Part shown: piece by piece, positions 39,563-52,705 of the stretch
Layout of the letters: every line of letters begins with the position of its first letter
Position numbering within the stretch: position 1 is the stretch's first letter
Source of the DNA: Nitrosopumilaceae archaeon
Lineage (GTDB): Archaea; Thermoproteota; Nitrososphaeria; Nitrososphaerales; Nitrosopumilaceae
Direction of reading: 5' to 3'
Assembly (NCBI GenBank): GCA_965208905.1
Contig: OZ242365.1
Span: 96,001-160,000, forward strand
Length of the DNA: 64,000 nt
Made by a program: the position numbers and the translations under genes
The notes under the pieces: generated by a model
Databases searched by the model: none
What the model was told of the DNA's origin: nothing
What the model saw: only the letters and a program-made list of their open reading frames with translations

Positions 39563-41005
39563 ATGGTGCAACAAGAACAAACTATGCAGACAGAGCATGA
39601 CCACCCTGTTGGCAAAAGCATTTTGAGTATTGACGTAACAGACTTTGGTCCGGTAACAAGAGGAGTTCTGAATCTGAAGCCACTCACGATATTGGTTGGC
39701 CCTAACGGTTGCGGCAAGTCTCACATTGCAACCCTTACTCACTCAGTCATAAATGCCGAGTACGATGCCCCAGTTGAAATGTTAACCCCTAATCCAAATG
39801 CGTCGTTTAACATAAACACTCTACTTGAGGAAGCTATACGCATACATAACGCACGTATGGCCGGTGCCAATTCCATTGATTCAAACATATATGAGTCATA
39901 TACTCGTCACAAATTCCAAAAACTACATGATATGCTCGCCGCTAATTTTGCCGGAGGGCACAAGTCTCTCATTCGTACAGGAAAAGAGCATTTCAAAATC
40001 ATATTGACATCAAAAGACCTCAGTGGAGTAGTAGAATGCACCGATACCATAACGAGCATACCTGCGAATAAAGCACGACTAAAAATTCATTTCAAAAGGC
40101 ACAAGGGTTCTATAAATGTCGATTTGGACAAAATGTTGCGCATAGACGGTGATACTGTACATATTGATATTCCTGATTTTCATGACCATAAACTGCTTGA
40201 GGCAGGCGCAGCATTGCCATTACTGACGGCTGCACTTCACATCAGGCAACCATCTTTGGGGCGCAGCATATATTTTCCCGCCGAACGAGGAGGTTTGACA
40301 TTGGCATACCGATCTCTGACACTACATTTTTACAATAATATTGGCTGGCCTAGCGTAAATTCCCTAGATTTGGACATGACAAACGTTTCAACCAACTTTT
40401 TAAGTCTACTACTTAAGCACGCTGGGGACAAAACAAAGTTTGCGGACTCTGTTGAAACCTTTGAAAAAAAGGCGCTAAATGGGTGTATCGTCGCACGTGA
40501 GGATGAAAAAAAATCAATAAATGTAGTTTTTGAGCAGTCTGGCGCCAGTTTTCCGCTCAGCAAGTCGGCCTCGTCAGTCAAGGATTTGGCCCTGTTTTTG
40601 CTGTATTTGAAACACCGAGCAAATAAGGGAGAGACCGTAATCCTGGAAGAACCCGAGACTACCATGCACCCGAGAAATCAGATAATGCTTGCCCGCTTTA
40701 TTGCCAAGATGGTTAATGCGGGATTGCGTGTGTTGATTACCACGCACAGTCAGTATTTTCTGGAGCAATTAAGTCATTGTGTAATGGCTGGCTCTAGTTC
40801 TGGAGAAGGTCCCATACCATTTCAGAATGATGAGATGTTAAACAACAATAGCGTAGCTGCATACGGATTCAAAAAAGATGGCGACGGTTACCGCATGTCG
40901 CCTATTGAGGTTGATGCTGAGGGTATTCCGCAGTATGAATTTATCGATGTAAGCGAAAGTTTGTACGACGAGCTCTTGAGATTGGAGCGGGCTGATGATT
41001 CGTGA
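39563..41005 (+). CDS. ABC-type ATPase (AAA_15/AAA_21-like)
   Basis: GPNGCGKS Walker A, FPAER, SASS signature, ILEEPE..HP Walker B, TTHS H-loop. Confidence 0.88.
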   Translation: MVQQEQTMQTEHDHPVGKSILSIDVTDFGPVTRGVLNLKPLTILVGPNGCGKSHIATLTHSVINAEYDAPVEMLTPNPNASFNINTLLEEAIRIHNARMAGANSIDSNIYESYTRHKFQKLHDMLAANFAGGHKSLIRTGKEHFKIILTSKDLSGVVECTDTITSIPANKARLKIHFKRHKGSINVDLDKMLRIDGDTVHIDIPDFHDHKLLEAGAALPLLTAALHIRQPSLGRSIYFPAERGGLTLAYRSLTLHFYNNIGWPSVNSLDLDMTNVSTNFLSLLLKHAGDKTKFADSVETFEKKALNGCIVAREDEKKSINVVFEQSGASFPLSKSASSVKDLALFLLYLKHRANKGETVILEEPETTMHPRNQIMLARFIAKMVNAGLRVLITTHSQYFLEQLSHCVMAGSSSGEGPIPFQNDEMLNNNSVAAYGFKKDGDGYRMSPIEVDAEGIPQYEFIDVSESLYDELLRLERADDS

Positions 41006-41501
41006 CATGTATAATGTACATGTCTCTGACATGTGTAAGGACAATAACAAGTGCAGCGTTATACTACCGGAGTCGTTCTTTTCCTTATGCGGCGAGGATG
41101 TCCGAGACATGTTGATAAGCGGTCGCAAACGGAAAAAGATGTGCGATTGCATAATTGTCGACAACCAAGAAAGCCGAATAACGTTGGCCGAGCTCAAATC
41201 CGGCAAACCCAATGCTGGAATGGTTAAACGTGCCAAAAGTCAACTAAAAACTGGTCTAACCATACTAGCAGAAATACTACAACAGGCCAACATACCACAA
41301 ATTAAGATGCAGTTGATATTACTCAGTAAACGACCTCGAAATGATTCGGTGCTTGTGTTATTGAAAAAACCAGTGATAGACTCTTGGCCAAAAACGCGTG
41401 TAATACGTGTTGACTGCGACTCTGCACTTCCGGACTCGTATACAGATGTGAGTGTGTCCGATGTGGCGAAAATGGGACTGTATAAATATCCGTTGAATTA
41501 G
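40995..41501 (+). CDS. Putative PD-(D/E)XK-like protein coupled to the ATPase
   Basis: CDCII..LAELKS motif; overlaps the ATPase stop. Confidence 0.6.
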   Translation: MIRDMYNVHVSDMCKDNNKCSVILPESFFSLCGEDVRDMLISGRKRKKMCDCIIVDNQESRITLAELKSGKPNAGMVKRAKSQLKTGLTILAEILQQANIPQIKMQLILLSKRPRNDSVLVLLKKPVIDSWPKTRVIRVDCDSALPDSYTDVSVSDVAKMGLYKYPLN

Positions 41502-41811
41502 AGAGCGGATTTGCTCTTACGGAACTCCCATGTGTATGGGATGGTTAACCAATGCTGACTTTGTTGAGGTAATGCGTTCTGGTCCAAGTTAATTGTTGTA
41601 TGTTGGACATACTTTTTAATTTTAACTCAGGTTGCCCCAGTATACGATGGTATCGCCCAAACAATATCATGAATTTTGCCGGAAAGCGGAGGTCAAGGGG
41701 CCTTGAAGCCGCCCCTCACCTTGATGGGGCGGCAAGAGGTCCCGACTCTGGAAAAAATGCGCAGTCTCCCCCACATAATACAGGGCAGTATTCCCTTCCA
41801 CTGAAGGGTTT

Positions 41812-42860
41812 CTAATGCTGTATTGCCCGTGTGCGTATGCGTTGCATCTTGCGCTTTACAAGACCTTCATTCTTGGTTCTATACTCGGTATCATTGGTTA
41901 GCATATGCCAGATGATCTCAGTCATCGTTCTTGCGATAGCGACCTTTGCCTTCATCTTGCCTATTCTGACCGATAGTCTCTCGTATTTTGCCTTCAGACG
42001 AACATCATGTCGTACCGCGGTAGTGGCCGCTTCCACCATGGCGTTACGCAGTCACACAGAGCCAGTTTTTGTTATGTGGCCATCTTTTTTGACATCCCCA
42101 CTATTCCGGTGTGACGGTACCAGGCCCGCATATGAGGCCATCTTTTCGGCGCTGGGAAACCTCTTGTGGTCTGAATCTCGGCCAGTACAGTGATGGCTGT
42201 TATGTGTCCTATTCCTGGTATGGTCATAATACGGCGCGCCCTTGCATCATCCAGTGCCATCCGGGCAATTGTATTTTCCAGAGATGTTAGTTCCTTGTTT
42301 ATAGTGCAAATTACACTCCGGTGCATATTTACCAATTGCCGGTCTATGTCACGCATGTTTATTTCATCAGCATTAATAGTGCAGAGTGTTTCTGGTTTGC
42401 GTGGGTATTTGCAGATGATGGCATGTATGCGGTTTCCACGCGCTACACGGGCACGCTACAGATCCAACCTGCCGCGCACAAGGGCACGCATGTCCCGATA
42501 GTAATTGCTTGGCACATACGACTCGGATATCATGTCGGACCGAAGTAGGTCCGCCAACACCTCTGAATCAATCTTGTCGTCCTTAAGCTTTGCCTGCGCT
42601 ATGACCTTGGTATTTCTTGGGTTTGCCATCTTTATCTCAATACCTGCTTCGGCCAACATATCATATGGCAGCACCCAATAGTTTCCTGTAGATTCGCAGA
42701 CTGCCTTGGCAGGCCAGTATTTCTTACTAACCATTTGTGTAAAATCAGATATTTCTTTGGTGTTATTTGCAAACGACACTCGATGTATGACACTGCGTTC
42801 TTTCCCCTTTATGGTTGCAACACACTTTTTCAAATGAACGTCAATTCCGATGTAATACAT
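41812..42860 (-). pseudogene. IS110-family DEDD recombinase/transposase, disrupted
   Basis: YIGIDVH, CESTGNYW, KDDKIDS, TIPGIG, SYAGLVP..NSG; stops near 42456 and 42055, frameshift near 42175. Confidence 0.9.
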
Positions 42861-42872
42861 TTTTCTATTTTC

Positions 42873-43018
42873 TCACCTCCTTTACAATAAATTGAACCCG
42901 ACCAGCGGAAGGCTCCCATTCGCCCTCAATGTGGCAGTCTACCATCCGCATACCTTGAGTCAATCTGTTCAACGCCTTTATGCATGGCAAGCTCAACACG
43001 ACTCTCAGGCCCAACAGG
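42873..43018 (-). ncRNA. Bridge-RNA-like structured non-coding unit A (IS110 5' end)
   Basis: Closing stem 43005-43014/42892-42901 encloses two stem-loops with large internal loops; followed by GGAGGTGA and the transposase ATG. Confidence 0.65.
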
Positions 43019-43028
43019 GTAGATGGAA

Positions 43029-43978
43029 TGCTCAGGCTAATAATGCCCACACATAGTATCTGTTCAGGACGGTCCGGTGGGCCAACGGCCTGTTCTGCCC
43101 ACGTTGCGGCGGGGTTGATATCGTCCGATACTGCCGATACCGGGGACACGTCCGGAGGTACACATGCAAGGGCTGCCGCCGGACCTTCAACGACAAGACT
43201 GGAACTATTCTTCACTACCGGCACGTCCGGATGGGAGACTGGATGCTGGCGGTCTGGATGTTCCTGTGCGGGCCGCCCAACGGGATATCGATAAACTACA
43301 TTGCAACTTCGATAGGCCGCGCCTACGGGGCCGTCTACCAGATGTACCGCGACATCATGCGGAAGGTGGGCGAGCTGCCGGAGGGCAAGCTGTCCGGGAC
43401 GGGAGAGACCGATAAGGGATACACCAGAGCCGGCTCCAAGGGGGTGTCACCGGGCAGCAACGGCGAGAACCGGACTGTCCCCAGCCGCCGCCGACTGCCC
43501 CGCGGTCCGGGCAGGGGCACCTTCGAGAAGAATGTACCGATGGTCACCATCTACCATCAGCGGGCCGCAGAAGGCGAACCGGATGTGACAATCTTCGAGG
43601 TTCCCCGTGGCGACGGCAAAACGCTGGCCGAAATGGTGGCCGAAAAGTTCGAACCGGGCTCGACGGTGATCACCGACGAGCATCCCGCCTACAAGAGCCT
43701 TGGGGAGATGGGATATGGCCACTTGGCCATCAACCACAGCGAGGGCGAGTACGCATCAGGCGAGCACAACGAGTTTCATACCAACAACTACGAGTGCCGT
43801 ATAGGTCTGCTGTATATGGTGGCTGAAAAAACACCGCGGCGTGAGCAAATGGCATCTGGAACGATACGTCAAGTCTTTCCAGTTTGTTCACAACCACAGG
43901 CACTATGGCATCAATGGTAGGTTCGTGGCTGCGCTAGCCGCCATCCTTGACCAATATGCCGGGAGACAAGCCTGACCA
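43029..43978 (+). mobile_element. IS1595-family (ISXO2-like) element with frameshifted transposase
   Basis: Zn ribbon CPRC..CKGC, ETD, ITDEHPAY, NHS, HTN; ends TGCTCAGGCT / AGCCTGACCA; degenerate 8-bp TSD AGATGGAA / AGATGTTT. Confidence 0.8.
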
Positions 43979-44132
43979 AGATGTTTTTCGCGCCGTAATT
44001 ATTTTCCGCAGCATCCGTCCTGCAGGCGCGTGTCGTCTGACCGGTTCATGCTTTTTCTGCACTGAACGCCAACTCCGCCGCCCTATGGGCGTAATTGCCA
44101 CCCCCAACATTAGATAGATGAGCGTTCTCATT

Positions 44133-44278
44133 TCACCTCCTTTTTAGTGGATAGTCGGACCTGACCATGGTCGACTTCCATCCGCCCTCGAAGGGGCTGA
44201 AGCTTTTCACGTACCTTGAGCCATTCTGTTAAACGCCCTCGGAGGGGCCAGTTCCTGCCGACTCTCAGGTCCAACAGG
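44133..44278 (-). ncRNA. Bridge-RNA-like structured non-coding unit B (no transposase downstream)
   Basis: Homologous to unit A; stems conserved by compensatory or G-U changes, loop sequences differ. Confidence 0.6.
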
Positions 44279-44319
44279 AAGAGTGCAGGTATCGCCGATA
44301 TAACAACGACACATAACTT

Positions 44320-44366
44320 CTGGTAAGTTATCGGTAGATGTTCCTTGCTGGTAAGTGTCGGTAGAT
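44320..44366 (+). repeat. Two direct repeats CTGGTAAGT(TA/G)TCGGTAGAT resembling the adjacent TIR
   Basis: 44320-44339 and 44348-44366; first copy matches TIR core CTGGTAACTTATCCG at 13/15. Confidence 0.7.
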
Positions 44367-44581
44367 CGTCCTTAGAGGTGTTTTGTATGGGGGCTTAGCC
44401 CTGTGGGACAGGCCTGGGCTGGTAACTTATCCGCGCTTGAAAAGCCCATGTTAGAATTACAATATTCTCCAAAAAAGCCGTGATTTTTACATTTCAAGTC
44501 CGCACCACCCACCAACAACCACAATGCGCAAATACGGAATCTTGGAACAACCTTAAAACGTACCTCGGGAAAAACAATACC

Positions 44582-47038
44582 GTGAAGCCATTCCACAAGA
44601 TCCTCGAAGTCAGACCTGATGTACAGGACGGCACATTAGACCAATCTGCATATGCGGCCAATCTGGGTGATGTAGTGTCTGATATAGACAAACCTGCCGC
44701 CAAAGAATACCGCAACCCTGTACTATTCAGAGAGATGACATATGAGACTGAAGGAATGCGCAAGGCATTAGATCACATTCGTGTACGGCTACAAGACGGC
44801 AAGGGTAATGGATTAAGACAGCTAGAGACAAGTTTTGGTGGTGGAAAGACGCATGCAATGATTGCAATGTATCATAAATGCAAGGACTGGGATACTACAC
44901 CTGTTGTCATAGACGGCCAGTCCCTGCGCACAACATCCACGTTATGGGGCGAGATAGAACGGCAGTTAGACGGTAATATACAAAAGATGGCCGGCCAGGT
45001 TGCACCTTCAGGAGACCAAATCTATGAGTTGCTACACAACAGGAAGAAGCCCATACTCATACTGATAGATGAGATCTTCAACTATGTGGCAGGCGCGGCT
45101 GCCATACCAATAGGCAATTCAGACTTGGCTGCACAGACCATAATATTCATGCAGAGGTTATACGGCCAGCTAGGTAGTCTGCAAAACGTATGCTTGGTGA
45201 TGTCTCTATCCAAACGTGATGATGTACTTGGTACTGATACCGGTAATCGCACTGCAAAAATACAAAATGAGTACTACTCAAAACTACAAAAGATAGCCGG
45301 TAGGCATCACCAGCTAGACACCATATCTGAGGATAACGACATATCACACATAATACGTCGCAGACTATTCAGTACAAGTGAAGAGACCATACAGTATGGT
45401 GCAAAGGACACTATACAGTGGTGTATAGAACAGATGGTGGAGGGTGAATCACTACTAGGTGATGACATAGAGAAGTACAAGGAGAGATTTGCCAACACAT
45501 ACCCATTCACGCCAGATGTAATCGACACACTACACAAAAAATGGGCATCCTACCCGACATTTCAGAGGACTCGCGGGGTACTGCGACTACTCTCACTAGT
45601 AGTGCACTCGTTGTTGGAGTCCAAGAGGTCTTGGATTGCACCAAGCGATATTGACTTGTCCGTACCTGAGATACGCCAGGAATTGTTAAAGCATACCGGC
45701 GATAACACCGAGAGTGTGATATCTACCGACATAGTGGGAAGCGATGCATTATCCAGAAAGGCAGATGAAGAGATAGGTGTTCGTTGCGCAGCAAGCATAT
45801 TCATGTATTCATTTCCGCCCAGGACTGGTCGTGGTGCGACATATGAGGAGGTAAAGCGCTCCACCTTCACGTATAACATAACACACTCGTTTATTGGAGA
45901 TACAGTGGGTAAACTACTGCGGCGTTGTTTCTATCTTGATGAGACAGATGACAAGATGTTGTATTTCGACATAAAGCCAAACATAAACCACATGATAGAC
46001 CAGGCCAAGCGGAATGTATCTGATGGAACAGTACATGATGAGGAGCGAAATAGATTGGATGGAGCTATAGATGGCGGGATGTTCGGTGACATACACATAT
46101 GGCCTGATGAGACCGAGGCATACAACATACCAGACAGGCCGGTTTTACAGTTGGTAATATGCAAGAAGGATGATCCGGAGTGGTGTGCAAAGGTCGTGAA
46201 CGGCACTAACAAGTCGCGCCGCATAAACATGAATGGCCTGATATTTCTGCTTCCCAGCAATGGGATTATGCTAAGTGATCTGTTGCGACTGTATCTAGGC
46301 GTGAAGTTTGTCAAAGGGAGTTTGTCTGCAGAGTACAAGGCTTCCACGCGCTCCTACCTGAACTCGGAGATAAAGCGCGCAAAGGACGGAATAGGTGATG
46401 AGTTGTGCAAAAAGTATTCTGTGGTGTATGTTCCGGCGGAGGGCGGTAAGGTCAGAAAGATTCGCGACTATATGTTCAATCCCGCCACTGACAGCTTAAA
46501 GTCGTTGGATAGTCTGATGTGGGAGCGCCTCACCAAGGAAGACCATGTGGCCGCCAGAATAGCCCCGGACATCGCAGCGCGATACGGGAAGGATGCAGAC
46601 GGCGCGTACGAGTCGATGATACGCACGCCGGGCAGCATAATGCCCGCATCCTTTGAGGTTGTACGGGAGGCATTCGAGTCTGATGAACCAGAAGTACCCG
46701 AGACTCCGGACACGCCTACGCATGGAGGGCGTCCATGGGGAGGTTCAACGTGGGATGAGCCAATACAGGATGAGCCAATACAGGAACCAGAAAAGACGTA
46801 TGAGCGCGTACTGTATACTGATGTGGTCGACGCGGCAAGGTTGACCGGCATGCGCTGGATGCTTCGGTCGCCGCAGGAACTATCTCTTAAGGGATTTGTC
46901 TGCAACATAAGCCAGCGCCCTGATGGAATGTACGACATACGCGTGGAGATGGGAGGTGCGGTCCCGGACAGTGTGGTGTCCAACATAAGACCCACCAACC
47001 GGGGAAAATTGGAGAAGGATGACGGCTGGGACGAATAG
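44582..47038 (+). CDS. DUF499-family AAA+ ATPase
   Basis: TSFGGGKTH Walker A, ILIDE Walker B, YPFTP, FQRTRGVLRLL; probable GTG start at 44582. Confidence 0.88.
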   Translation: MKPFHKILEVRPDVQDGTLDQSAYAANLGDVVSDIDKPAAKEYRNPVLFREMTYETEGMRKALDHIRVRLQDGKGNGLRQLETSFGGGKTHAMIAMYHKCKDWDTTPVVIDGQSLRTTSTLWGEIERQLDGNIQKMAGQVAPSGDQIYELLHNRKKPILILIDEIFNYVAGAAAIPIGNSDLAAQTIIFMQRLYGQLGSLQNVCLVMSLSKRDDVLGTDTGNRTAKIQNEYYSKLQKIAGRHHQLDTISEDNDISHIIRRRLFSTSEETIQYGAKDTIQWCIEQMVEGESLLGDDIEKYKERFANTYPFTPDVIDTLHKKWASYPTFQRTRGVLRLLSLVVHSLLESKRSWIAPSDIDLSVPEIRQELLKHTGDNTESVISTDIVGSDALSRKADEEIGVRCAASIFMYSFPPRTGRGATYEEVKRSTFTYNITHSFIGDTVGKLLRRCFYLDETDDKMLYFDIKPNINHMIDQAKRNVSDGTVHDEERNRLDGAIDGGMFGDIHIWPDETEAYNIPDRPVLQLVICKKDDPEWCAKVVNGTNKSRRINMNGLIFLLPSNGIMLSDLLRLYLGVKFVKGSLSAEYKASTRSYLNSEIKRAKDGIGDELCKKYSVVYVPAEGGKVRKIRDYMFNPATDSLKSLDSLMWERLTKEDHVAARIAPDIAARYGKDADGAYESMIRTPGSIMPASFEVVREAFESDEPEVPETPDTPTHGGRPWGGSTWDEPIQDEPIQEPEKTYERVLYTDVVDAARLTGMRWMLRSPQELSLKGFVCNISQRPDGMYDIRVEMGGAVPDSVVSNIRPTNRGKLEKDDGWDE

Positions 47039-49613
47039 GCTCATTGGTACGATAATACCAATAAATGATATATCAAAGGGTGGAGCCGCAGAGAAGAAGA
47101 GGGGTCGCGGTAGAATCAACAACTTACATCGGTGGTGGGCTTCGCGGCCTACTACAGTATCCCGCATCACAGCATATGCAGCACTGGTTGATCCGCCAAT
47201 AGAAGAACATAAGAAAATGATACTAGACATGTGCGACTATGATAATACAACCAAACCCGAACGGATAGCAGTACGGGATGCCGCGCGCAAGCGAATCAAA
47301 GAAAAGTGGGAAAATCCTCCAAAGGTGCTGGATCCGTTCGGCGGCACGGGGGCGCTGCCGTTCAGCGCCGCGTGGCTGGGCTGTGAATCACATTCTATGG
47401 ATTACAATCCTGTTGCTGTTATATTACAAAAGTGCGCGTTGGAGTATCCGACCAGGTACGGGCATGAACTCAAGGAAGATGTCATGCGGTATGCGAAACA
47501 AGTTGGCGAGCTGTTGAAGGAGCGTACCACGCCTTATTATCCGGGCGAGTCGCACTACGGGTATATCTGGTGCCGGACAATCCGGTGTAAGTGCGGGTGT
47601 ATAATCCCACTTATACACGACTACACACTCTCAAAAAGTTATGGTATGCATTTCCGGCCCGCTGCGCGAGACGGCGAGGTTGAATTCACCATACACGACA
47701 AGGGTGAGATACCTCCCGGTCAGGTGGGAGGTAGGCGGGCCATATGTGTAAACTGTGGACACACGTACACCAACATAGAGATACGAGACATGGTATGGGA
47801 CCACGGCTCGGAGATGATGTGTGTTGCCACATCCGTACCAAAGCGAGGGAGGAGTAAGTCGTATAGGTCGGTTGATGCGGATGACCGGACACTGTATGAG
47901 TCATGCGCCGCGCAGCTGAAAGAGTGTCGTGCGCAGTTTCGCGAGAAATATGACATAGACCCAATACCTGACATCGTCATCCCCATGCCAGACGGCCTGG
48001 AGTATAGGCCGGGTGGACCGGTATGGCATGTCTTGCGCATAGCTACGTTTGGCCACACCCGTTGGTCGCAACTCTTCAACAACCGGCAGCTACTGTGCAT
48101 GGTGATACTATTGGATATACTGCGCGAGATCGAGGCGGACGTAATAAAGAATCACGGCATGGAGCGCGGCATTGCCATAATGACTTACCTTGGGCTAATG
48201 ATGGACAAGACTCTGGAAAGGTACTGTAGATTGTCACCTTGGCTAACAGATAGTGGCAGAGTCACACATTGCTTCTCCCAACAAAATCTACGTAACACGT
48301 GGGACTATCCGGAGGTTGCCCCCCACATATTATGGGGGCAGTCAATCACCCATATTTCGGACGGCATGAACGCGGCCCTCTCCAACAACACCGTATGCGA
48401 CGTGCGACGGGCCTCGGCCACCAACCTACCATATGATGACTGTACATTCGATGCCGTATGCACGGACCCGCCGTATTATGATGCCATGCAGTACTCATAC
48501 ACGTCCGACTTCTATGTGTGGCTGAAGCGCTCCATTGGACATTTACACCCTGAATTATTCCGCGGCACGCATACTCCAAAGAAAAACGAGGTGATTGAGA
48601 CAGAAAGCCTGGCCATGCATATAACACCGGAATGTAAGGTGCGAGACAGTGATGGCTATCAACAGCTAATGTCACGGTCACTACACGAGATGCATCGTGT
48701 GTTGAAACCAGATGGTATACTCACATTAGTATACGCGCATAAGACCACTGAGGGTTGGGAGACCCTCATCAAATCAATATTAGAGGCGGGATTCACGATA
48801 ACAGCGGCCTGGCCGGTCGATACTGAGAGTTCATCCCGCATGAAATCCCGTGGTACGGCAGCCCTTGCCTCATCAATATACATGGTGGGCCGTAAGTGGG
48901 AGCGCAAACCGGTAGCCGAGTGGCGCACAGTACAGTTAGAGTTCCGCGAGCATGTGTGCGCCATGCTGGACAGGCTCATCAAGGCAAACATAACGGGCTC
49001 GGACTTTTACATTGCGGCCATCGGGTCCGCTCTGGAGATATTCGGTAAGTATAAGGCGGTGCGAAGAAGTAATGGCGAGCAAATCACTATAGACGAAATA
49101 CTTGATGAGATACGCACCCTGTGCTCGGAGTTCATAGTAAAGATGCTCACACAGGGTGGTGGCGGAAACATAGATCCGCTAACCAAGCTCTACATAACGT
49201 GGCGGTGGGCGTACGGCAATCAAAAAATACACTTTGATGTTGCGCGAAAGTTGTTCACCGGTGTGGGACGAGACATGGACGAATATTCGGGCAAGGGTGG
49301 TATAATACGGCGCAAAGGCAGTGAAGTAAAGCTGCTGACGCATCAGGAGCGCGATGAAGAGATACGTATCAAGAGCCGCATAGATGCCATACATCAGGCC
49401 ATCCGCTACTGGCACGCCAACAAGCTTGACGACATGAAGGAGATATTGCGCGAGACTGGCAATATAGGCGATGTGTTCAATGCCGTCTGCAAGGCGATTG
49501 CAAGGGCCGGGAATGGAGAGACAGATGAAGCGAGGGAGATCGACCAGTTCCGTTCAGGGCGAGAAGAAGAGATAAACGAACCTGTGGGGCAGCTAAGGAT
49601 GACTGATTACTGA
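47019..49613 (+). CDS. DUF1156-family amino (m6A/m4C) DNA methyltransferase
   Basis: LHRWWASRP, DPFGGTG (SAM-binding), TDPPYYD (catalytic), zinc-ribbon Cys pairs. Confidence 0.9.
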   Translation: MTAGTNRLIGTIIPINDISKGGAAEKKRGRGRINNLHRWWASRPTTVSRITAYAALVDPPIEEHKKMILDMCDYDNTTKPERIAVRDAARKRIKEKWENPPKVLDPFGGTGALPFSAAWLGCESHSMDYNPVAVILQKCALEYPTRYGHELKEDVMRYAKQVGELLKERTTPYYPGESHYGYIWCRTIRCKCGCIIPLIHDYTLSKSYGMHFRPAARDGEVEFTIHDKGEIPPGQVGGRRAICVNCGHTYTNIEIRDMVWDHGSEMMCVATSVPKRGRSKSYRSVDADDRTLYESCAAQLKECRAQFREKYDIDPIPDIVIPMPDGLEYRPGGPVWHVLRIATFGHTRWSQLFNNRQLLCMVILLDILREIEADVIKNHGMERGIAIMTYLGLMMDKTLERYCRLSPWLTDSGRVTHCFSQQNLRNTWDYPEVAPHILWGQSITHISDGMNAALSNNTVCDVRRASATNLPYDDCTFDAVCTDPPYYDAMQYSYTSDFYVWLKRSIGHLHPELFRGTHTPKKNEVIETESLAMHITPECKVRDSDGYQQLMSRSLHEMHRVLKPDGILTLVYAHKTTEGWETLIKSILEAGFTITAAWPVDTESSSRMKSRGTAALASSIYMVGRKWERKPVAEWRTVQLEFREHVCAMLDRLIKANITGSDFYIAAIGSALEIFGKYKAVRRSNGEQITIDEILDEIRTLCSEFIVKMLTQGGGGNIDPLTKLYITWRWAYGNQKIHFDVARKLFTGVGRDMDEYSGKGGIIRRKGSEVKLLTHQERDEEIRIKSRIDAIHQAIRYWHANKLDDMKEILRETGNIGDVFNAVCKAIARAGNGETDEAREIDQFRSGREEEINEPVGQLRMTDY

Positions 49614-52600
49614 TGAAGTATGGCGACTTGAAGCCGGACATGCTGATAGACGGTCCGTATTGGGACAGGCCGGTTACACTGGAACAGTTCGAGAGTGCTG
49701 GACAGCACACCAAACTAACCATACGACGTTACAATGGCACTACGAGCACTATACGTGTGAAACTTGAAGATATAGACATTCATCACACACAGTACGGCAC
49801 GCCATGGCGTACAAGGGCGGCGGTTGACATGCTGCGCCACAAACATGCAAAGGGTGGTGGGGCCGACATGGGTGGGATGGACCCCCTTCCGCACCAGATA
49901 CAGTCAATACGCCGCATAACCAGCCAGTACGATAACATAAGGTTCCTGCTGGCAGATGAGCCCGGGGCCGGCAAGACCGCAGTCGCGTCCAGCATAATAC
50001 GCGAGATGAAACTACAGGGACGTGCGGACCGCACACTGATAGTTACACCCGCACACCTCAAATACCAGTGGAGGGCTGAGTTGAAGCGATTCACCGGCCT
50101 GAAGGGATACATAGTTGAGGGAGGCAGTATAGACCAGTCCAACCCGTGGCCGACAGACGAGCACGACATACTCATAACATCCATTGATTACGCCAGGGGT
50201 GAGAAGAACCTTCAGGTATTGGCGCGCATGGAGTTTGATCTGGTGGTTGTGGATGAGGCCCACCACATGAACTCGTCCGGCAAGAACGTAAGTAAACGGT
50301 ACAGGGTGGGCGAGGCACTCTCAAACATATCGAAACACATGCTGTTCCTGACCGCGACACCGCACCGCGGCAAGCCTGAAAACTTCCAGCGCCTCCTGAA
50401 ACTACTAAATCCGGAACTGTTCCCTGACGGCCTTTCATCCGAGGAGGTGGCTGTCCGCAAGGGGCCGATGTTCCTGCGCCACCTCAAAACGGAGATGACG
50501 GACATGGATGGCAGGCCAATATTTCCCAAACGCAGTGTAAGATCCCTCAAATACGAGATGTCCATACCGGAGAGCGACATGTATAAAATGGTGAGCAACT
50601 ATGTGCGCAAACAGCATCAGAGATTAGTAGAACAGGATGAGCGACAACTCGCACCATTCCTAATACTACTGATACAGAAACGCATGGCATCCAGCACGTA
50701 CGCGCTGCAAAAGACGTTGGAGCGACGCAGGGACAAACTCAAGGACTATCTGGAGAGGGACATATTCCCAAGACCCAATCTGGAGTACGAAGAAGTGGAC
50801 GATGAGTATGATGAGGATGACCCCGAGCATGAGCGGCGGGACGACGAGTTGAGCGGCATAAGCGCGTCGCGCACGCCAGAAGAGCTGAAGGTAGAGATTG
50901 CCGAACTGGACAGCTTGGTTGAGGCAGCAGACCAGGCGGCCAGCACAAAGCCGGACAGGAAGCTTGAAAAGCTGCTCGACATAGTAAAGAGTCTCGGTGA
51001 CGGCAAACTGCTGGTATTCAGTGAGTACATGGACACCATACAGTATCTGGAGAAGCATATTGGTGAGCGGGTATGCCGTATAGACGGCAAGATGAAGCAA
51101 CAGCAACGAGATGCTGCTGTGCAGGAGTTCCGTGATACATACCGCATAATGCTGGCAACAGATGCCGCGCGAGAGGGAATGAACATGCAGTTCTGTAATA
51201 CAATGGTGAACTATGATTTGCCCTGGAGTCCAATTGTACTGGAGCAGCGCATGGGTCGTCTGCACAGATACGGCCAGGAGAAGGATGTTACAATACACAA
51301 CATGATAGCAGACAACACAATAGAGGGGGACGTATTGGAGAGGCTGGATGCCAAAATCAAAGAGATAGAGAAGCAATACGAGGCAGTAGACGTCATAGGA
51401 ACAATACTGTCGGAGGTCAACATAAAGGACATAATGGTGGAATCGATTACGGGGCGCGTCTCCGATGGCGTCAGTAAGCGGATGCGGTATGTCGGGGAGA
51501 AGATGCGGCGGGAGCAGGAGATGTTGGAGCGCACACCGGTGGATCTGGAAGCGGCTCTCAGGGCAAAGGGTGAGATTGCTGCAAAACATGTTGATGGTAA
51601 ACATCTTGTATACATGATGCAGAACATATTCAGTGGATTGGGCGGGAGCGTCAAGTCAACCAACACAAAGACCACGATACAGGTACCATCAGAGTTGCGC
51701 AGTGGGCCGTTTAGGCGCAAGCGGGAGTCGTTTGACATACCCGTGCAGGAGGCTCTGTCAAGGGGCACCAAACTGTACAAGCACATAGAATCCTGGGTCA
51801 TGGACAACTGCAGGGCCGACCTGCAGGGAGGGTCGGTGTTTGCAGGCAACTATGAAGGCCACATAGTGTTCCATATAACCAAATTGAAGGACAGTTCGGG
51901 TAAGACTGCTGAAGTTTTGGTGCAGGCCCACCGCGTCGGCGCGGACGGTGTTGTGCAGTCCGTGCATCCGGATATATTGAGCGAGTTGGACGATATGGGT
52001 GGAGACCCCGGAGCCAGGCCGGAGGTTGGCAGTGCAACGGACAGGGCGTTTGAGGATGCCCAGGCTAGGTCAAGGCAGCTGAACGAGGAAGCGAGAGAGT
52101 ACTGGAGGCATCGGAGTGAGACGATGAACATAGGCGGGGGTTTGGAGTCGCTACGGATGGAGTTGGGCGATCTCATGCCCGGGACGCCAGAGTGGAAGGC
52201 GATAGATGAAAAGATAAAGAACTTGGAGTCGTGGGAGGGTAACATGCAGAGGAGCGCCAGCACAGACAAGCTGCACGTGGAGGAGCCTGTATTGGTGGGC
52301 TGGGTCAGGGTAGTGCGGCGCAAGGATACACAGGATACAGAGATACGCGGCATGAACCGCAGTATGGAGATAGAACGCAAAGAGGGTTTCATACCCGAGG
52401 ATGTCTCGAATAAACGCGGCCTTGGATACGATATACTATCAAAACATCCAGATGGCCGGGAGCGTCATATAGAGGTGAAGGCGCGGTGTTCATTCACACC
52501 AGTACAACTCACCCCCAATGAGGAGAATGCACGTCTTAAAGACCCGAACTACAAACTACACGTGCACGTAATTGATGGTGATACACATTATACAACCATC

Positions 52601-52705
52601 TTAGACGATCCATCTAAACTGATTACAAAGAAAAATCTTTCATATGATGCTCCAATTTCTGAGCTTAACCGTCTTGGTGTAAAGTATGAGTATTCTGAAG
52701 AGTAA
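49613..52705 (+). CDS. SNF2-family helicase with C-terminal DUF3883-like nuclease domain
   Basis: LADEPGAGKT, DEAH, TATP, EQRMGRLHRYGQ; C-terminal GYDI..IEVK..LTPNE. Confidence 0.9.
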   Translation: MKYGDLKPDMLIDGPYWDRPVTLEQFESAGQHTKLTIRRYNGTTSTIRVKLEDIDIHHTQYGTPWRTRAAVDMLRHKHAKGGGADMGGMDPLPHQIQSIRRITSQYDNIRFLLADEPGAGKTAVASSIIREMKLQGRADRTLIVTPAHLKYQWRAELKRFTGLKGYIVEGGSIDQSNPWPTDEHDILITSIDYARGEKNLQVLARMEFDLVVVDEAHHMNSSGKNVSKRYRVGEALSNISKHMLFLTATPHRGKPENFQRLLKLLNPELFPDGLSSEEVAVRKGPMFLRHLKTEMTDMDGRPIFPKRSVRSLKYEMSIPESDMYKMVSNYVRKQHQRLVEQDERQLAPFLILLIQKRMASSTYALQKTLERRRDKLKDYLERDIFPRPNLEYEEVDDEYDEDDPEHERRDDELSGISASRTPEELKVEIAELDSLVEAADQAASTKPDRKLEKLLDIVKSLGDGKLLVFSEYMDTIQYLEKHIGERVCRIDGKMKQQQRDAAVQEFRDTYRIMLATDAAREGMNMQFCNTMVNYDLPWSPIVLEQRMGRLHRYGQEKDVTIHNMIADNTIEGDVLERLDAKIKEIEKQYEAVDVIGTILSEVNIKDIMVESITGRVSDGVSKRMRYVGEKMRREQEMLERTPVDLEAALRAKGEIAAKHVDGKHLVYMMQNIFSGLGGSVKSTNTKTTIQVPSELRSGPFRRKRESFDIPVQEALSRGTKLYKHIESWVMDNCRADLQGGSVFAGNYEGHIVFHITKLKDSSGKTAEVLVQAHRVGADGVVQSVHPDILSELDDMGGDPGARPEVGSATDRAFEDAQARSRQLNEEAREYWRHRSETMNIGGGLESLRMELGDLMPGTPEWKAIDEKIKNLESWEGNMQRSASTDKLHVEEPVLVGWVRVVRRKDTQDTEIRGMNRSMEIERKEGFIPEDVSNKRGLGYDILSKHPDGRERHIEVKARCSFTPVQLTPNEENARLKDPNYKLHVHVIDGDTHYTTILDDPSKLITKKNLSYDAPISELNRLGVKYEYSEE

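What the first reader, a model, noticed from the sequence alone, without database searches (positions are those of the whole stretch)
42873..44300. Two homologous bridge-RNA-like units with conserved scaffold and different loops upstream of one IS110 recombinase
Seen (minus strand): units A (42873-43018) and B (44133-44278) share CCTGTTGG-x-CCTGAGAGTCG...GCC-loop-GGC..AACAGA..CTCAAGGTA...GCC-loop-GGC...GGAGGTGA. Stems are conserved through compensatory or G-U changes (TTGGGCCTGA/TCGGGTTCAA in A; TTGGACCTGA/TCAGGTCCGA in B), while internal-loop strands differ (TGTTGAGCTT vs GCAGGAACTG; TGGTAGACT vs AAAAGCTTCA). A precedes the recombinase; B precedes only a non-homologous short ORF. Each has its own TATA-like box + CGGCG. 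Known: IS110 non-coding ends encode bridge/seek RNAs whose internal loops specify target and donor. Inference: an archaeal bridge-RNA family, with B either an RNA-only mini-element or a second guide that reprograms the same recombinase. I could not match the loops to junction sequences convincingly.
Basis: partly seen in the sequence, partly recalled or inferred. Interest (0 to 1): 0.75.

Follow-up and report, generated by a model that had tools for sequence, protein, structure and literature searches.

The report
Two archaeal bridge RNAs, one orphaned
Both units are real guide ("bridge") RNAs of two different IS110-type jumping genes in an ammonia-oxidising-type archaeon, and the one without a recombinase is simply the stranded front end of an element that other insertion sequences broke up.

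Summary
Units A (42873-43018) and B (44133-44278), minus strand, are homologous and belong to an RNA family found in 19 of 151 related archaeal genomes, with strong stem covariation. Their internal loops are guides. Across dozens of elements, one strand of loop 1 repeats the left flank, the other complements the right flank, and loop 2 matches the element's own ends. They are therefore bridge RNAs, with guide order reversed relative to IS621 (as in IS1111 seekRNAs) although they lie upstream of the recombinase.

B is not a designed RNA-only element, nor a second guide for A's recombinase. It is the first ~195 nt of a second IS110-family element ("ISB"), which has three full 1.68-kb copies elsewhere. 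It is cut at the start codon by an IS1595-family element. Element A then inserted into that IS1595 element at a site matching A's own guides. The outermost flanks form an intact ISB-type target, so the rest of ISB and 185 bp of IS1595 were lost later. All three elements here are defective.

True recombinase-less mini-elements do exist in two relatives. Expression is untested. This is a new member of a known kind.

The parts
44320..44327 (-). Left half of an ISB-type target: CTTACC plus core AG, directly upstream of B's left end.
   Evidence: The same CTTACC/GTTACC-AG lies left of all three full ISB copies. It equals the ISB left target guide.
44125..44319 (-). Remnant (~195 nt) of the left end of an ISB-like IS110-family element. 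It includes a TATA-like box (44303-44298), and homology ends at the recombinase start codon.
   Evidence: 93.5% identity over 215 nt to the full copies, and nothing further.
44155..44273 (-). Bridge RNA B core (outer stem to outer stem). Right target guide 44259-44249, left target guide 44234-44223, right donor guide 44207-44198, left donor guide 44183-44174.
   Evidence: CM score 177.5 bits; helices supported by covariation; guide assignment.
43060..44124 (+). IS1595-family element fragment (1,065 of about 1,251 bp), with its transposase on the + strand (ORF 43231-43920). Its terminal inverted repeat abuts B at 44124. Its other end is cut by element A, and the last ~185 bp are missing. The 65-aa ORF 44131-43934 lies in its end.
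   Evidence: Pfam DDE_Tnp_IS1595 6e-15; 94% identical full copy at genome 1403493-1404746 and others; A's insertion lies about 35 codons into the transposase ORF.
43060..43067 (-). Left half of A's target (CTGAAC plus core AG), which is IS1595 sequence.
   Evidence: Two of the three uninterrupted IS1595 copies examined read CCTGAAC-AG-CTCGGC at this point; the third reads CTGAAC-AA-CTCGC. A's left guide is TTGAAC-AG. A's right guide complements AG-CTCA, which pairs with AG-CTCG through G:U.
41525..43059 (-). Element A: a 1,535-bp IS110-family element comprising left end with bridge RNA, recombinase pseudogene, 3' non-coding region and right end.
   Evidence: Boundaries come from the end of IS1595 homology and from the right-end motif ACACATGGGAG.
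42893..43013 (-). Bridge RNA A core. Right target guide 42999-42989, left target guide 42973-42962, right donor guide 42946-42936, left donor guide 42921-42913. TATA-like box upstream at 43044-43038.
   Evidence: CM score 150.5 bits; covariation; the left guide matches its own flank at 7 of 8.
41812..42860 (-). IS110-family (DEDD) recombinase pseudogene of element A, with three lesions.
   Evidence: Pfam; translation in three frames.
41525..41535 (-). Right end of the composite: subterminal repeat ACACAT, then GGG, then core AG.
   Evidence: It matches A's left donor guide ATGGGAG at 7 of 7, and B's ATGGAAG at 6 of 7.
41521..41524 (-). Right half of an ISB-type target (TTCC).
   Evidence: The same TTCC lies right of all three ISB copies. 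B-type right guides complement AG-TTCC. A's own right guide scores only 4 of 8 here.

Best explanation
A and B are bridge (seek) RNAs encoded in the left ends of two different IS110-family insertion sequences of an archaeon.

Structure. Each RNA has an outer stem enclosing two arms. [quoted passage not shown] Arm 2 is the donor-binding loop: its 5' strand pairs with the element's left-end start, and its 3' strand repeats the right-end tip ...ATGGRAG.

Mechanism (inferred from IS621/IS1111 work). The DEDD recombinase uses this RNA to bring the circularised element's RE-LE junction together with a matching target, and exchanges strands at the AG core.

History of the locus (inferred).
1. An ISB-like element inserted into CTTACC-AG-TTCC.
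2. An IS1595-family element inserted at its recombinase start codon.
3. Element A, guided by its own RNA, inserted into the IS1595 transposase gene at CTGAAC-AG-CTCG.
4. A deletion or recombination between the right part of A and the right part of the ISB-like element removed 185 bp of IS1595 and the ISB body.

This leaves B stranded as an orphan left end. All three elements are now defective.
For: Family and structure:
- The model hits 7 places in this genome and 19 of 151 related genomes.
- On 56 distinct rows, 95.2% of cells pair, 20 of 22 pairs show changes on both sides, 0 of 500 shuffles reach this, and slid controls give 21-45% pairing.
- RNAalifold on an independent MAFFT alignment (33 of 40 non-redundant units) recovers three helices, 9 of 12 pairs with compensatory changes.

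Guides:
- Left guide versus own left flank: mean 6.12 of 8, with 31 of 58 at 7 or more. Against other elements' flanks: 4.31, with 12 of 2,952 at 7 or more; permutation 0 of 10,000.
- Right guide versus own right junction: 5.63 of 8, with 17 of 27 at 6 or more. Against others: 3.88, with 44 of 646 at 6 or more; 0 of 10,000.
- Right donor guide versus left-end start: 4.93 versus 4.41 of 7; 0 of 10,000.
- The two bases after the core in the left-guide strand match the element's first two bases: the second matches in 30 of 38, where 12.7 are expected.

Locus:
- ISB has three full copies; B matches only their first about 200 nt.
- The IS1595 terminus abuts B.
- Two of the three uninterrupted IS1595 copies carry A's predicted target, and that 10-mer pattern occurs nowhere else in the genome.
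- The outer flanks equal the ISB target.
- Public contigs cover 41300-43089, 43298-44263 and 44199-44444 without differences.
- The genome's SSU rRNA is best matched by the archaeal model.
Against: - No RNA data are available, so transcription, RNA ends and recombinase binding are untested.
- Single-sequence folding z-scores are unremarkable.
- The donor-guide signal is weak in size.
- The alignment used for the pair counts was fitted to the model.
- Related sequences inflate the permutation tests.
- The three ISB recombinase genes all need a +1 shift within the Transposase_20 domain, and A's is a pseudogene, so no obviously intact recombinase of this family is in the genome.
- The order of events and the deletion mechanism are inferred. 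The right end cannot be assigned to A or to the ISB-like element by homology.
- The contig across the A|IS1595 junction overlaps the IS1595 side by only 29 nt.
Confidence: 0.85

Rival explanations
1. B is a functional orphan guide. It would be transcribed from its own internal TATA-type promoter and act in trans with an ISB-type recombinase encoded elsewhere. It could retarget ISB donors to TTAAC-AG-TTCC sites, or mobilise the composite segment bounded by B's left end and the right end at 41525.
For: - B's scaffold is intact: 177.5 bits against 179.1 for full copies.
- The conserved T/A-rich box lies inside the left end, so it is kept in orphans.
- B's left guide differs from ISB at two positions, and its variant 11-mer target occurs 3 times in the genome.
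- The composite is flanked by an intact ISB-type target.
- IS621 bridge RNA works in trans (PMC11208160, passages read).
- Recombinase-less modules are moved by an IS110 transposase in Pseudomonas putida (PMC12288879, abstract only).
Against: - B's own left flank matches the ISB consensus guide, not B's variant guide (6 of 8), as expected for post-insertion decay.
- The truncation is explained by an IS1595 insertion.
- ISB recombinase genes are frameshifted.
- Three sites against about 1 expected is not a meaningful excess.
- No expression data exist.
Confidence: 0.1
2. The whole segment from B's left end to the right end at 41525 transposed here as one composite unit. It would have been excised and inserted by an ISB-type recombinase using B's left end and A's right end, rather than being built in place by nested insertions and a deletion.
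For: - The flanks are a clean ISB-type target.
- The right-end tip differs from the ISB left donor guide at one base only.
- Internal-deletion and mini derivatives with matching flanks exist in relatives.
Against: - It still requires an earlier deletion elsewhere to join these parts.
- No second copy of the composite exists in the genome.
- No empty or alternative site was found in 9 same-genus genomes.
Confidence: 0.12
3. The units are cis-regulatory 5' leaders of the recombinase mRNA (translation or stability control), not guides.
For: The unit ends in a conserved GGAGGTGA 5-9 nt before the start codon, so it is probably part of the recombinase transcript.
Against: Loop sequences covary with flanking DNA outside the element, which a leader function does not explain. 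Recombinase-less mini-elements keep the RNA and matching flanks.
Confidence: 0.02
4. The B / IS1595 / A arrangement is an assembly artefact in repeated DNA.
For: All parts are multi-copy repeats. An 8.3-kb 99.9% duplicate starts 87 nt from B.
Against: Independent contigs of public runs bridge the IS1595|B junction (966 nt) and B's left junction (246 nt). They also cover A plus 21 kb beyond its right end, all with 0 differences. These runs may come from the same material as the assembly.
Confidence: 0.02

Closest known systems
IS621 bridge RNA (IS110 group; Durrant et al. 2024, PMC11208160; Hiraizumi et al. 2024, PMC11208158; passages read)
   Same: - Encoded in the left end upstream of a DEDD recombinase.
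- Two internal loops, each with one strand pairing to the bottom-left and one to the top-right of target or donor around a shared core dinucleotide.
- A long left guide and a short right guide.
- Extra handshake-like bases that match the partner DNA after exchange.
   Different: - Guide order is reversed in both loops: the right guide is 5' and the left guide 3'. In IS621 the left guides are at 50-58 and 123-130, and the right guides at 77-80 and 157-165.
- The core is AG, not CT.
- There is a three-way arrangement under one outer stem and no separate 5' stem-loop.
- The likely promoter is a TATA-type box wholly inside the left end, rather than a sigma-70 promoter rebuilt across the RE-LE junction.
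- No Rfam family matches.
IS1111-type seekRNAs (ISEc11, ISKpn4, ISPa11; Siddiquee et al. 2024, PMC11187229; sections 6, 9, 12 read)
   Same: - The top-strand-complementary segment lies 5' of the bottom-strand one.
- Subterminal inverted repeats flank the junction (ACACAT / ATGTGT).
- The recombinase carries a GL-P----S(G/A) motif (seen; the motif definition is from the paper).
   Different: - The RNA is upstream of the recombinase gene, whereas almost all IS1111 members have it downstream. The paper names a few exceptions, such as ISMtsp17, and ISHvo10 and ISAcp5 with both.
- The repeats are only 6-7 bp.
- Subgroup membership was not tested by phylogeny here.
ISEc21 (IS110 family), which targets the transposase gene of IS3-family elements (PMC11187229, section 12)
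   Same: Element A's guides specify a site inside another insertion sequence's transposase gene (IS1595 family). That site occurs only in copies of that element.
   Different: A different target family, the opposite guide order, and an archaeal host.
ISPpu9 / Ssr9 modules of Pseudomonas putida (PMC12288879; abstract only)
   Same: IS110-family small-RNA modules are found with and without the transposase gene in one genome.
   Different: There, the RNA-only module forms its own circles and was not needed for transposition. Here, B lacks a right end of its own and is explained by disruption. True LE+RE mini-elements were seen only in relatives.

Membership tests
Bridge / seek RNA of IS110-family elements | Encoded in a non-coding end of an element with a DEDD (PF01548 + PF02371) recombinase | tested here: met
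   Pfam hits for A's gene and for ISB's. 26 of 59 units with at least 1 kb of downstream sequence are followed by a full recombinase gene.
Bridge / seek RNA of IS110-family elements | Conserved secondary structure with two internal loops, supported by covariation | tested here: met
   95.2% of cells paired, 20 of 22 pairs with double-sided changes, 0 of 500 shuffles; independent RNAalifold support for three helices.
Bridge / seek RNA of IS110-family elements | Target loop complementary to both strands of the insertion site around a core | tested here: met
   Left guide n=58 and right guide n=27; both 0 of 10,000 permutations. The core AG sits at the fixed position in 39 of 57 distinct upstream regions.
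Bridge / seek RNA of IS110-family elements | Donor loop complementary to the element's joined ends | tested here: met
   The left donor guide ATGGRAG equals the right-end tip and takes the state GGAAG or GGGAG together with it. The right donor guide versus left-end start gives a weak but non-random signal.
Bridge / seek RNA of IS110-family elements | RNA is expressed and bound by the recombinase; changing the guides changes the sites | not testable with these tools
   No RNA run was listed for this stretch.
IS621-like (IS110-group) bridge RNA architecture | Left guide 5' of right guide in each loop | tested here: not met
   The order is right guide then left guide in both loops (compared).
IS1111 group | Guide RNA in the right end, downstream of the recombinase; subterminal repeats of 7-17 bp | tested here: not met
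   The RNA is upstream. The repeats ACACAT/ATGTGT are 6-7 bp. Guide order and the GL-P motif do fit.
RNA-only mini-element (for unit B) | Own left and right ends close together without a recombinase, flanked by the target its guides specify, preferably in more than one copy | tested here: not met
   B runs straight into an IS1595 terminus. No right-end motif follows within 900 nt. The feature is met for other members: two ~305-nt copies in G040 and one ~720-nt derivative in G001.
IS1595 family (the element between A and B) | DDE_Tnp_IS1595 transposase, terminal inverted repeats, multiple copies | tested here: met
   Pfam 6e-15; a 1,251-bp full copy with inverted ends CGCTCATCT...GTTGGGGG; at least 4 further copies or fragments.

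The most novel reading that the evidence does not exclude
In this archaeal lineage the promoter lies inside the left end, so stranded left ends such as B and recombinase-less mini-elements stay transcribed. They would then form a pool of free-standing bridge RNAs that retarget, or parasitise, recombinases encoded by other copies. B's two guide changes would be a natural reprogramming to TTAAC-AG-TTCC sites. The 2.8-kb segment between B's left end and the right end at 41525 would be a mobilisable composite.
Probability: 0.1. Interest if true: 0.7.

Novelty: new member of a known kind. Interest (0 to 1): 0.42.

Why it matters
Bridge RNAs were described in 2024, and almost all functional work is bacterial. 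This analysis gives a well-supported archaeal family whose guide code can be read directly from dozens of natural insertions. It has a 5-6 nt left guide, an AG core, a 4-6 nt right guide and a 2-nt handshake-like extension.

The layout mixes IS110-group position with IS1111-group guide order, and the promoter appears to be archaeal and internal. That is useful raw material for two lines of work. One is engineering recombinases with a different RNA geometry. The other is the proposed evolutionary link between IS110 recombinases with bridge RNAs and archaeal Nop5 with C/D-box RNAs (bioRxiv 10.1101/2024.06.21.599552; passages read), which so far rests on proteins.

For the specific finding the result is deflationary. 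The orphan unit is ordinary insertion-sequence wreckage.

Tried and rejected
- Rfam scan of 40000-46000 at E up to 1: no family.
- Single-sequence MFE folding: z-scores of -0.60 and -1.04, not informative.
- RNA evidence: no RNA holder was listed for window 42800-44400. The four DNA runs were laid only to check the junctions.
- Empty-site search: the 773-nt left flank and the 725-nt right flank were searched in the 9 other same-genus genomes. Only gene-internal matches at 66-79% came back, with no orthologous uninterrupted site.
- Assigning the right end at 41525 to A or to the ISB-like element by homology of the 3' non-coding region: only two weak matches, so this is undecided.
- Model R1 on 10 loci of the more distant recombinase relatives (bacterial, 26-35% identity, and one partial archaeal), filters off: nothing below E 0.15. 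A phylum-wide sample gave hits only in the window's own family: 4 of 151 including this genome.
- Naming the IS subgroup through annotated plasmids: all hits are called only 'IS110 family transposase'. The best are haloarchaeal at about 33% identity.
- A rejected reading was that A's insertion next to IS1595 sequence is coincidence. A's predicted target occurs only in IS1595 copies.
- Literature searches for an earlier description in this lineage ('bridge RNA', 'IS110', 'archaea'; then the same with Nitrosopumil/Thaumarchaeota/Nitrososphaer) found none. A 2026 preprint (10.64898/2026.10.21.760802; section 8 and passages read) models 32,190 bridge RNAs with 86 covariance models and may include this family. 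Its supplements, and those of the 2024 papers, could not be seen.
Full report
WHAT IS THERE

All features below read on the minus strand. The order is as follows.
- The flank ends in CTTACC-AG (44327-44320).
- A 195-nt left-end remnant (44319-44125) contains unit B.
- An IS1595-family element fragment follows (44124-43060), with its transposase on the plus strand.
- Element A runs from 43059 to 41525. It comprises unit A, a recombinase pseudogene at 42860-41812, a 285-nt 3' non-coding region and the right-end tip ACACATGGGAG.
- The flank then resumes with TTCCGTAAG.

Pfam assigns A's gene to DEDD_Tnp_IS110 and Transposase_20, and the middle ORF to DDE_Tnp_IS1595. A's gene carries a TAG, a frameshift and a TGA.

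THE OBSERVATION

A and B are clearly homologous, and the quoted stems and loop strands are present.

Copies elsewhere in the genome:
- B has three more copies at 94% identity.
- A has one full-length relative at 81% and two 5' fragments.

The B-like copies are the left ends of a 1,682-bp element that I call ISB. Two copies are identical and the third is 96% identical. B in the window matches only its first ~200 nt.

ARE THEY BRIDGE RNAs?

I built a covariance model from five copies.
- It finds 7 places in this genome.
- It finds members in 19 of 151 related genomes, counting this one.
- In a phylum-wide sample it hits 4 of 151 genomes, all in the window's own family.
- The genome's SSU rRNA is best matched by the archaeal model.
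- The only close named protein relative lies in a record titled Nitrosopumilaceae archaeon (L019, 67% identity).

I fetched 56 further regions and aligned 69 matches, of which 64 are non-identical.

Stem covariation:
- 95.2% of cells pair, against 83.3% when shuffled.
- 20 of 22 pairs change on both sides, and 0 of 500 shuffles reach the observed values.
- Slid partners give 21-45% pairing.
- That alignment was fitted to the model. As a check, I ran RNAalifold on a plain MAFFT alignment of 33 of the 40 non-redundant units. I left out seven truncated or insert-bearing rows. It recovers three helices, with compensatory changes in 9 of 12 pairs.

THE DECISIVE TEST: LOOPS AGAINST FLANKS

For ISB the match can be read by eye.
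- The 3' strand of loop 1, CTTACCAGAA, repeats the left junction.
- The 5' strand, GGAACT, complements AG-TTCC at the right junction.
- The 3' strand of loop 2, ATGGAAG, repeats the right-end tip.
- Its 5' strand, AGCTTC, complements the left-end start.

Across the family:

| Comparison | Own element | Other elements | Permutations reaching observed |
|---|---|---|---|
| Left guide (6 nt + AG) vs left flank | mean 6.12 of 8; 31 of 58 at 7 or more | mean 4.31; 12 of 2,952 at 7 or more | 0 of 10,000 |
| Right guide vs right junction | mean 5.63 of 8; 17 of 27 at 6 or more | mean 3.88; 44 of 646 at 6 or more | 0 of 10,000 |
| Right donor guide vs left-end start | mean 4.93 of 7 | mean 4.41 | 0 of 10,000 |

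- The right-guide test used only elements in which a right-end motif could be found.
- The donor-guide signal is weaker but non-random.
- The two bases after the core in the left-guide strand follow the first two bases of the element. The second matches in 30 of 38, where 12.7 are expected. This resembles the handshake guides of IS621.
- Relatedness among elements inflates all of these tests. However, many distinct guide-flank pairs are visible in the raw table.

I conclude that these are bridge RNAs with a target-binding loop and a donor-binding loop around an AG core.

HOW THE FAMILY COMPARES WITH KNOWN TYPES

- In IS621 the left guides precede the right guides in both loops. Here the order is reversed in both.
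- The seekRNA paper reports exactly this reversal for IS1111-type elements. Those carry the RNA downstream of the gene and have subterminal repeats.
- This family has the RNA upstream, 6-7-bp repeats (ACACAT/ATGTGT) and a GL-P----S(G/A) motif. It therefore mixes features of both groups. The paper mentions rare exceptions of this sort. I did not make a phylogeny.
- A conserved T/A-rich box sits 16-22 nt before the model start, inside the left end. This fits an archaeal TATA promoter whose transcript would start at the outer stem. That is inference only.

WHAT B IS

- B's similarity to ISB ends at GGTGAAATGA, the start-codon region. There the sequence CGCTCATCTATC... begins, which is the terminal repeat of a 1,251-bp IS1595-family element with several other copies.
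- At its other side the IS1595 fragment stops at CCTGAAC-AG. Two of the three uninterrupted copies examined continue ...AG-CTCGGCTG.
- A's left guide is TTGAAC-AG. A's right guide complements AG-CTCA, which pairs with AG-CTCG through G:U. The pattern TGAAC-AG-CTC[AG] occurs in the genome only in two other IS1595 copies.
- Element A therefore inserted into the IS1595 transposase gene, about 35 codons in, guided by its own RNA. ISEc21 similarly targets IS3 transposase genes.
- The remaining 185 bp of IS1595 and the body of the ISB-like element are absent.
- The sequence right of the composite is AG-TTCC. This is the ISB-type right half-site, scoring 6 of 8 like the three ISB copies, whereas A's own right guide scores 4 of 8.
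- The outermost flanks therefore form one ISB-type target, CTTACC-AG-TTCC. The simplest history is nested insertions followed by a deletion or recombination between the right parts of A and of the ISB-like element.
- A comparable product is seen in a relative, where a left end truncated exactly at the left-guide core is fused to a complete element (L168).
- The exact path, and whether the right end is A's (left donor guide 7 of 7) or the ISB-like element's (6 of 7), stays open.

WHY B IS NOT A SECOND GUIDE FOR A

- B's donor loop is of the ISB type.
- The recombinases share 41.9% identity.
- A's gene is dead.
- B's left guide has two changes from the ISB consensus, whereas its own flank fits the consensus. 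This looks like decay after insertion.

ORPHANS IN GENERAL

Of 59 units with at least 1 kb of downstream sequence, 26 have a full recombinase gene, 17 a truncated one and 16 none.

Most of these look like wreckage, but two cases are real mini-elements:
- In G040 a ~305-nt element has the left end with the RNA joined to a right end. Its right flank matches the right guide at 7 of 8. It is present in two copies of 88% identity.
- In G001 there is a ~720-nt internal-deletion derivative.

CHECKS ON THE ASSEMBLY

Contigs from four public runs, which may be the source material, were laid on the region.
- They cover 41300-43089 within a 21.7-kb contig.
- They cover 43298-44263 and 44199-44444.
- All show no differences.
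- The A|IS1595 junction is overlapped by only 29 nt on one side.

VERDICT

The special role proposed for B is not supported. Bridge RNAs and their diversity are already known, so this is a new archaeal member with an unusual mix of features. It is not a new kind of system.

Noticed in passing
genome copies of ISB (L007:1661-2672; genome 1374833-1376514, 1695404-1697085, 1907161-1908851): All three ISB recombinase genes need a +1 shift at ACC-AAA-G|TCC to continue into ...SGSRWLRNAAVEAAF.... The shift splits the Transposase_20 domain at residue 271. Eight orthologues in relatives are contiguous there. It is either a shared inactivating insertion or programmed +1 frameshifting.
   Followed up: partly
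window 41708-41733 (minus strand), and the 3' non-coding region of ISB: Both elements carry a strong GC hairpin (GCCGCCCC...GGGGCGGC, with further flanking pairs) in a long 3' non-coding region of 285 nt in A and about 450 nt in ISB. Its function is unknown. This family therefore has sizeable non-coding regions at both ends.
   Followed up: no
window 44415-52679: An 8.3-kb stretch holding the DUF499 gene is 99.93% identical to genome 1116873-1125137, and a 75% paralogue lies at 1646357-1654430. The duplicate's boundary is 87 nt from B's left end. On the minus strand it reads GTTACC-AG-CCCA, which resembles an ISB left half-site.
   Followed up: partly
window 44328-44430 (minus strand): The flank left of B contains three spaced copies of (C/G)TTACCAG. 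Two of them sit within a repeated ATCTACCGA..CTTACCAG motif that also precedes other ISB copies, so ISB seems to target a short dispersed repeat. The 11-mer TTACCAGTTCC occurs unoccupied 6 times in the genome, where about 1 is expected.
   Followed up: partly
L168 (G068:C3:936927-939627), positions 60-200: A left end that stops exactly at the core of its left guide is fused to a complete copy of the same element. The DNA that encodes the guide mimics the target, so copies can insert into each other's guide.
   Followed up: partly
L182 and L183 (G040:C21), L184 (G001:C13): Recombinase-less mini-elements carry only the bridge RNA between a left and a right end. Two ~305-nt copies lie in one genome and one ~720-nt derivative in another, all with flanks fitting their guides.
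   Followed up: partly
window 39563-41501 and 44480-47038: The insertion-sequence cluster lies between an AAA_15/AAA_21 ATPase gene with a weak TdeIII-like endonuclease neighbour and a DUF499 ATPase gene. This context looks like a defence island.
   Followed up: no
genome 1544667-1544870 (L096) and 780579-780677 (L097): There are two further orphan A-type units in this genome. One is complete, with other repeated DNA starting at the recombinase start codon. The other is cut right after its left guide by another copy of the same IS1595-family element. Each has its own left guide matching its own flank.
   Followed up: partly
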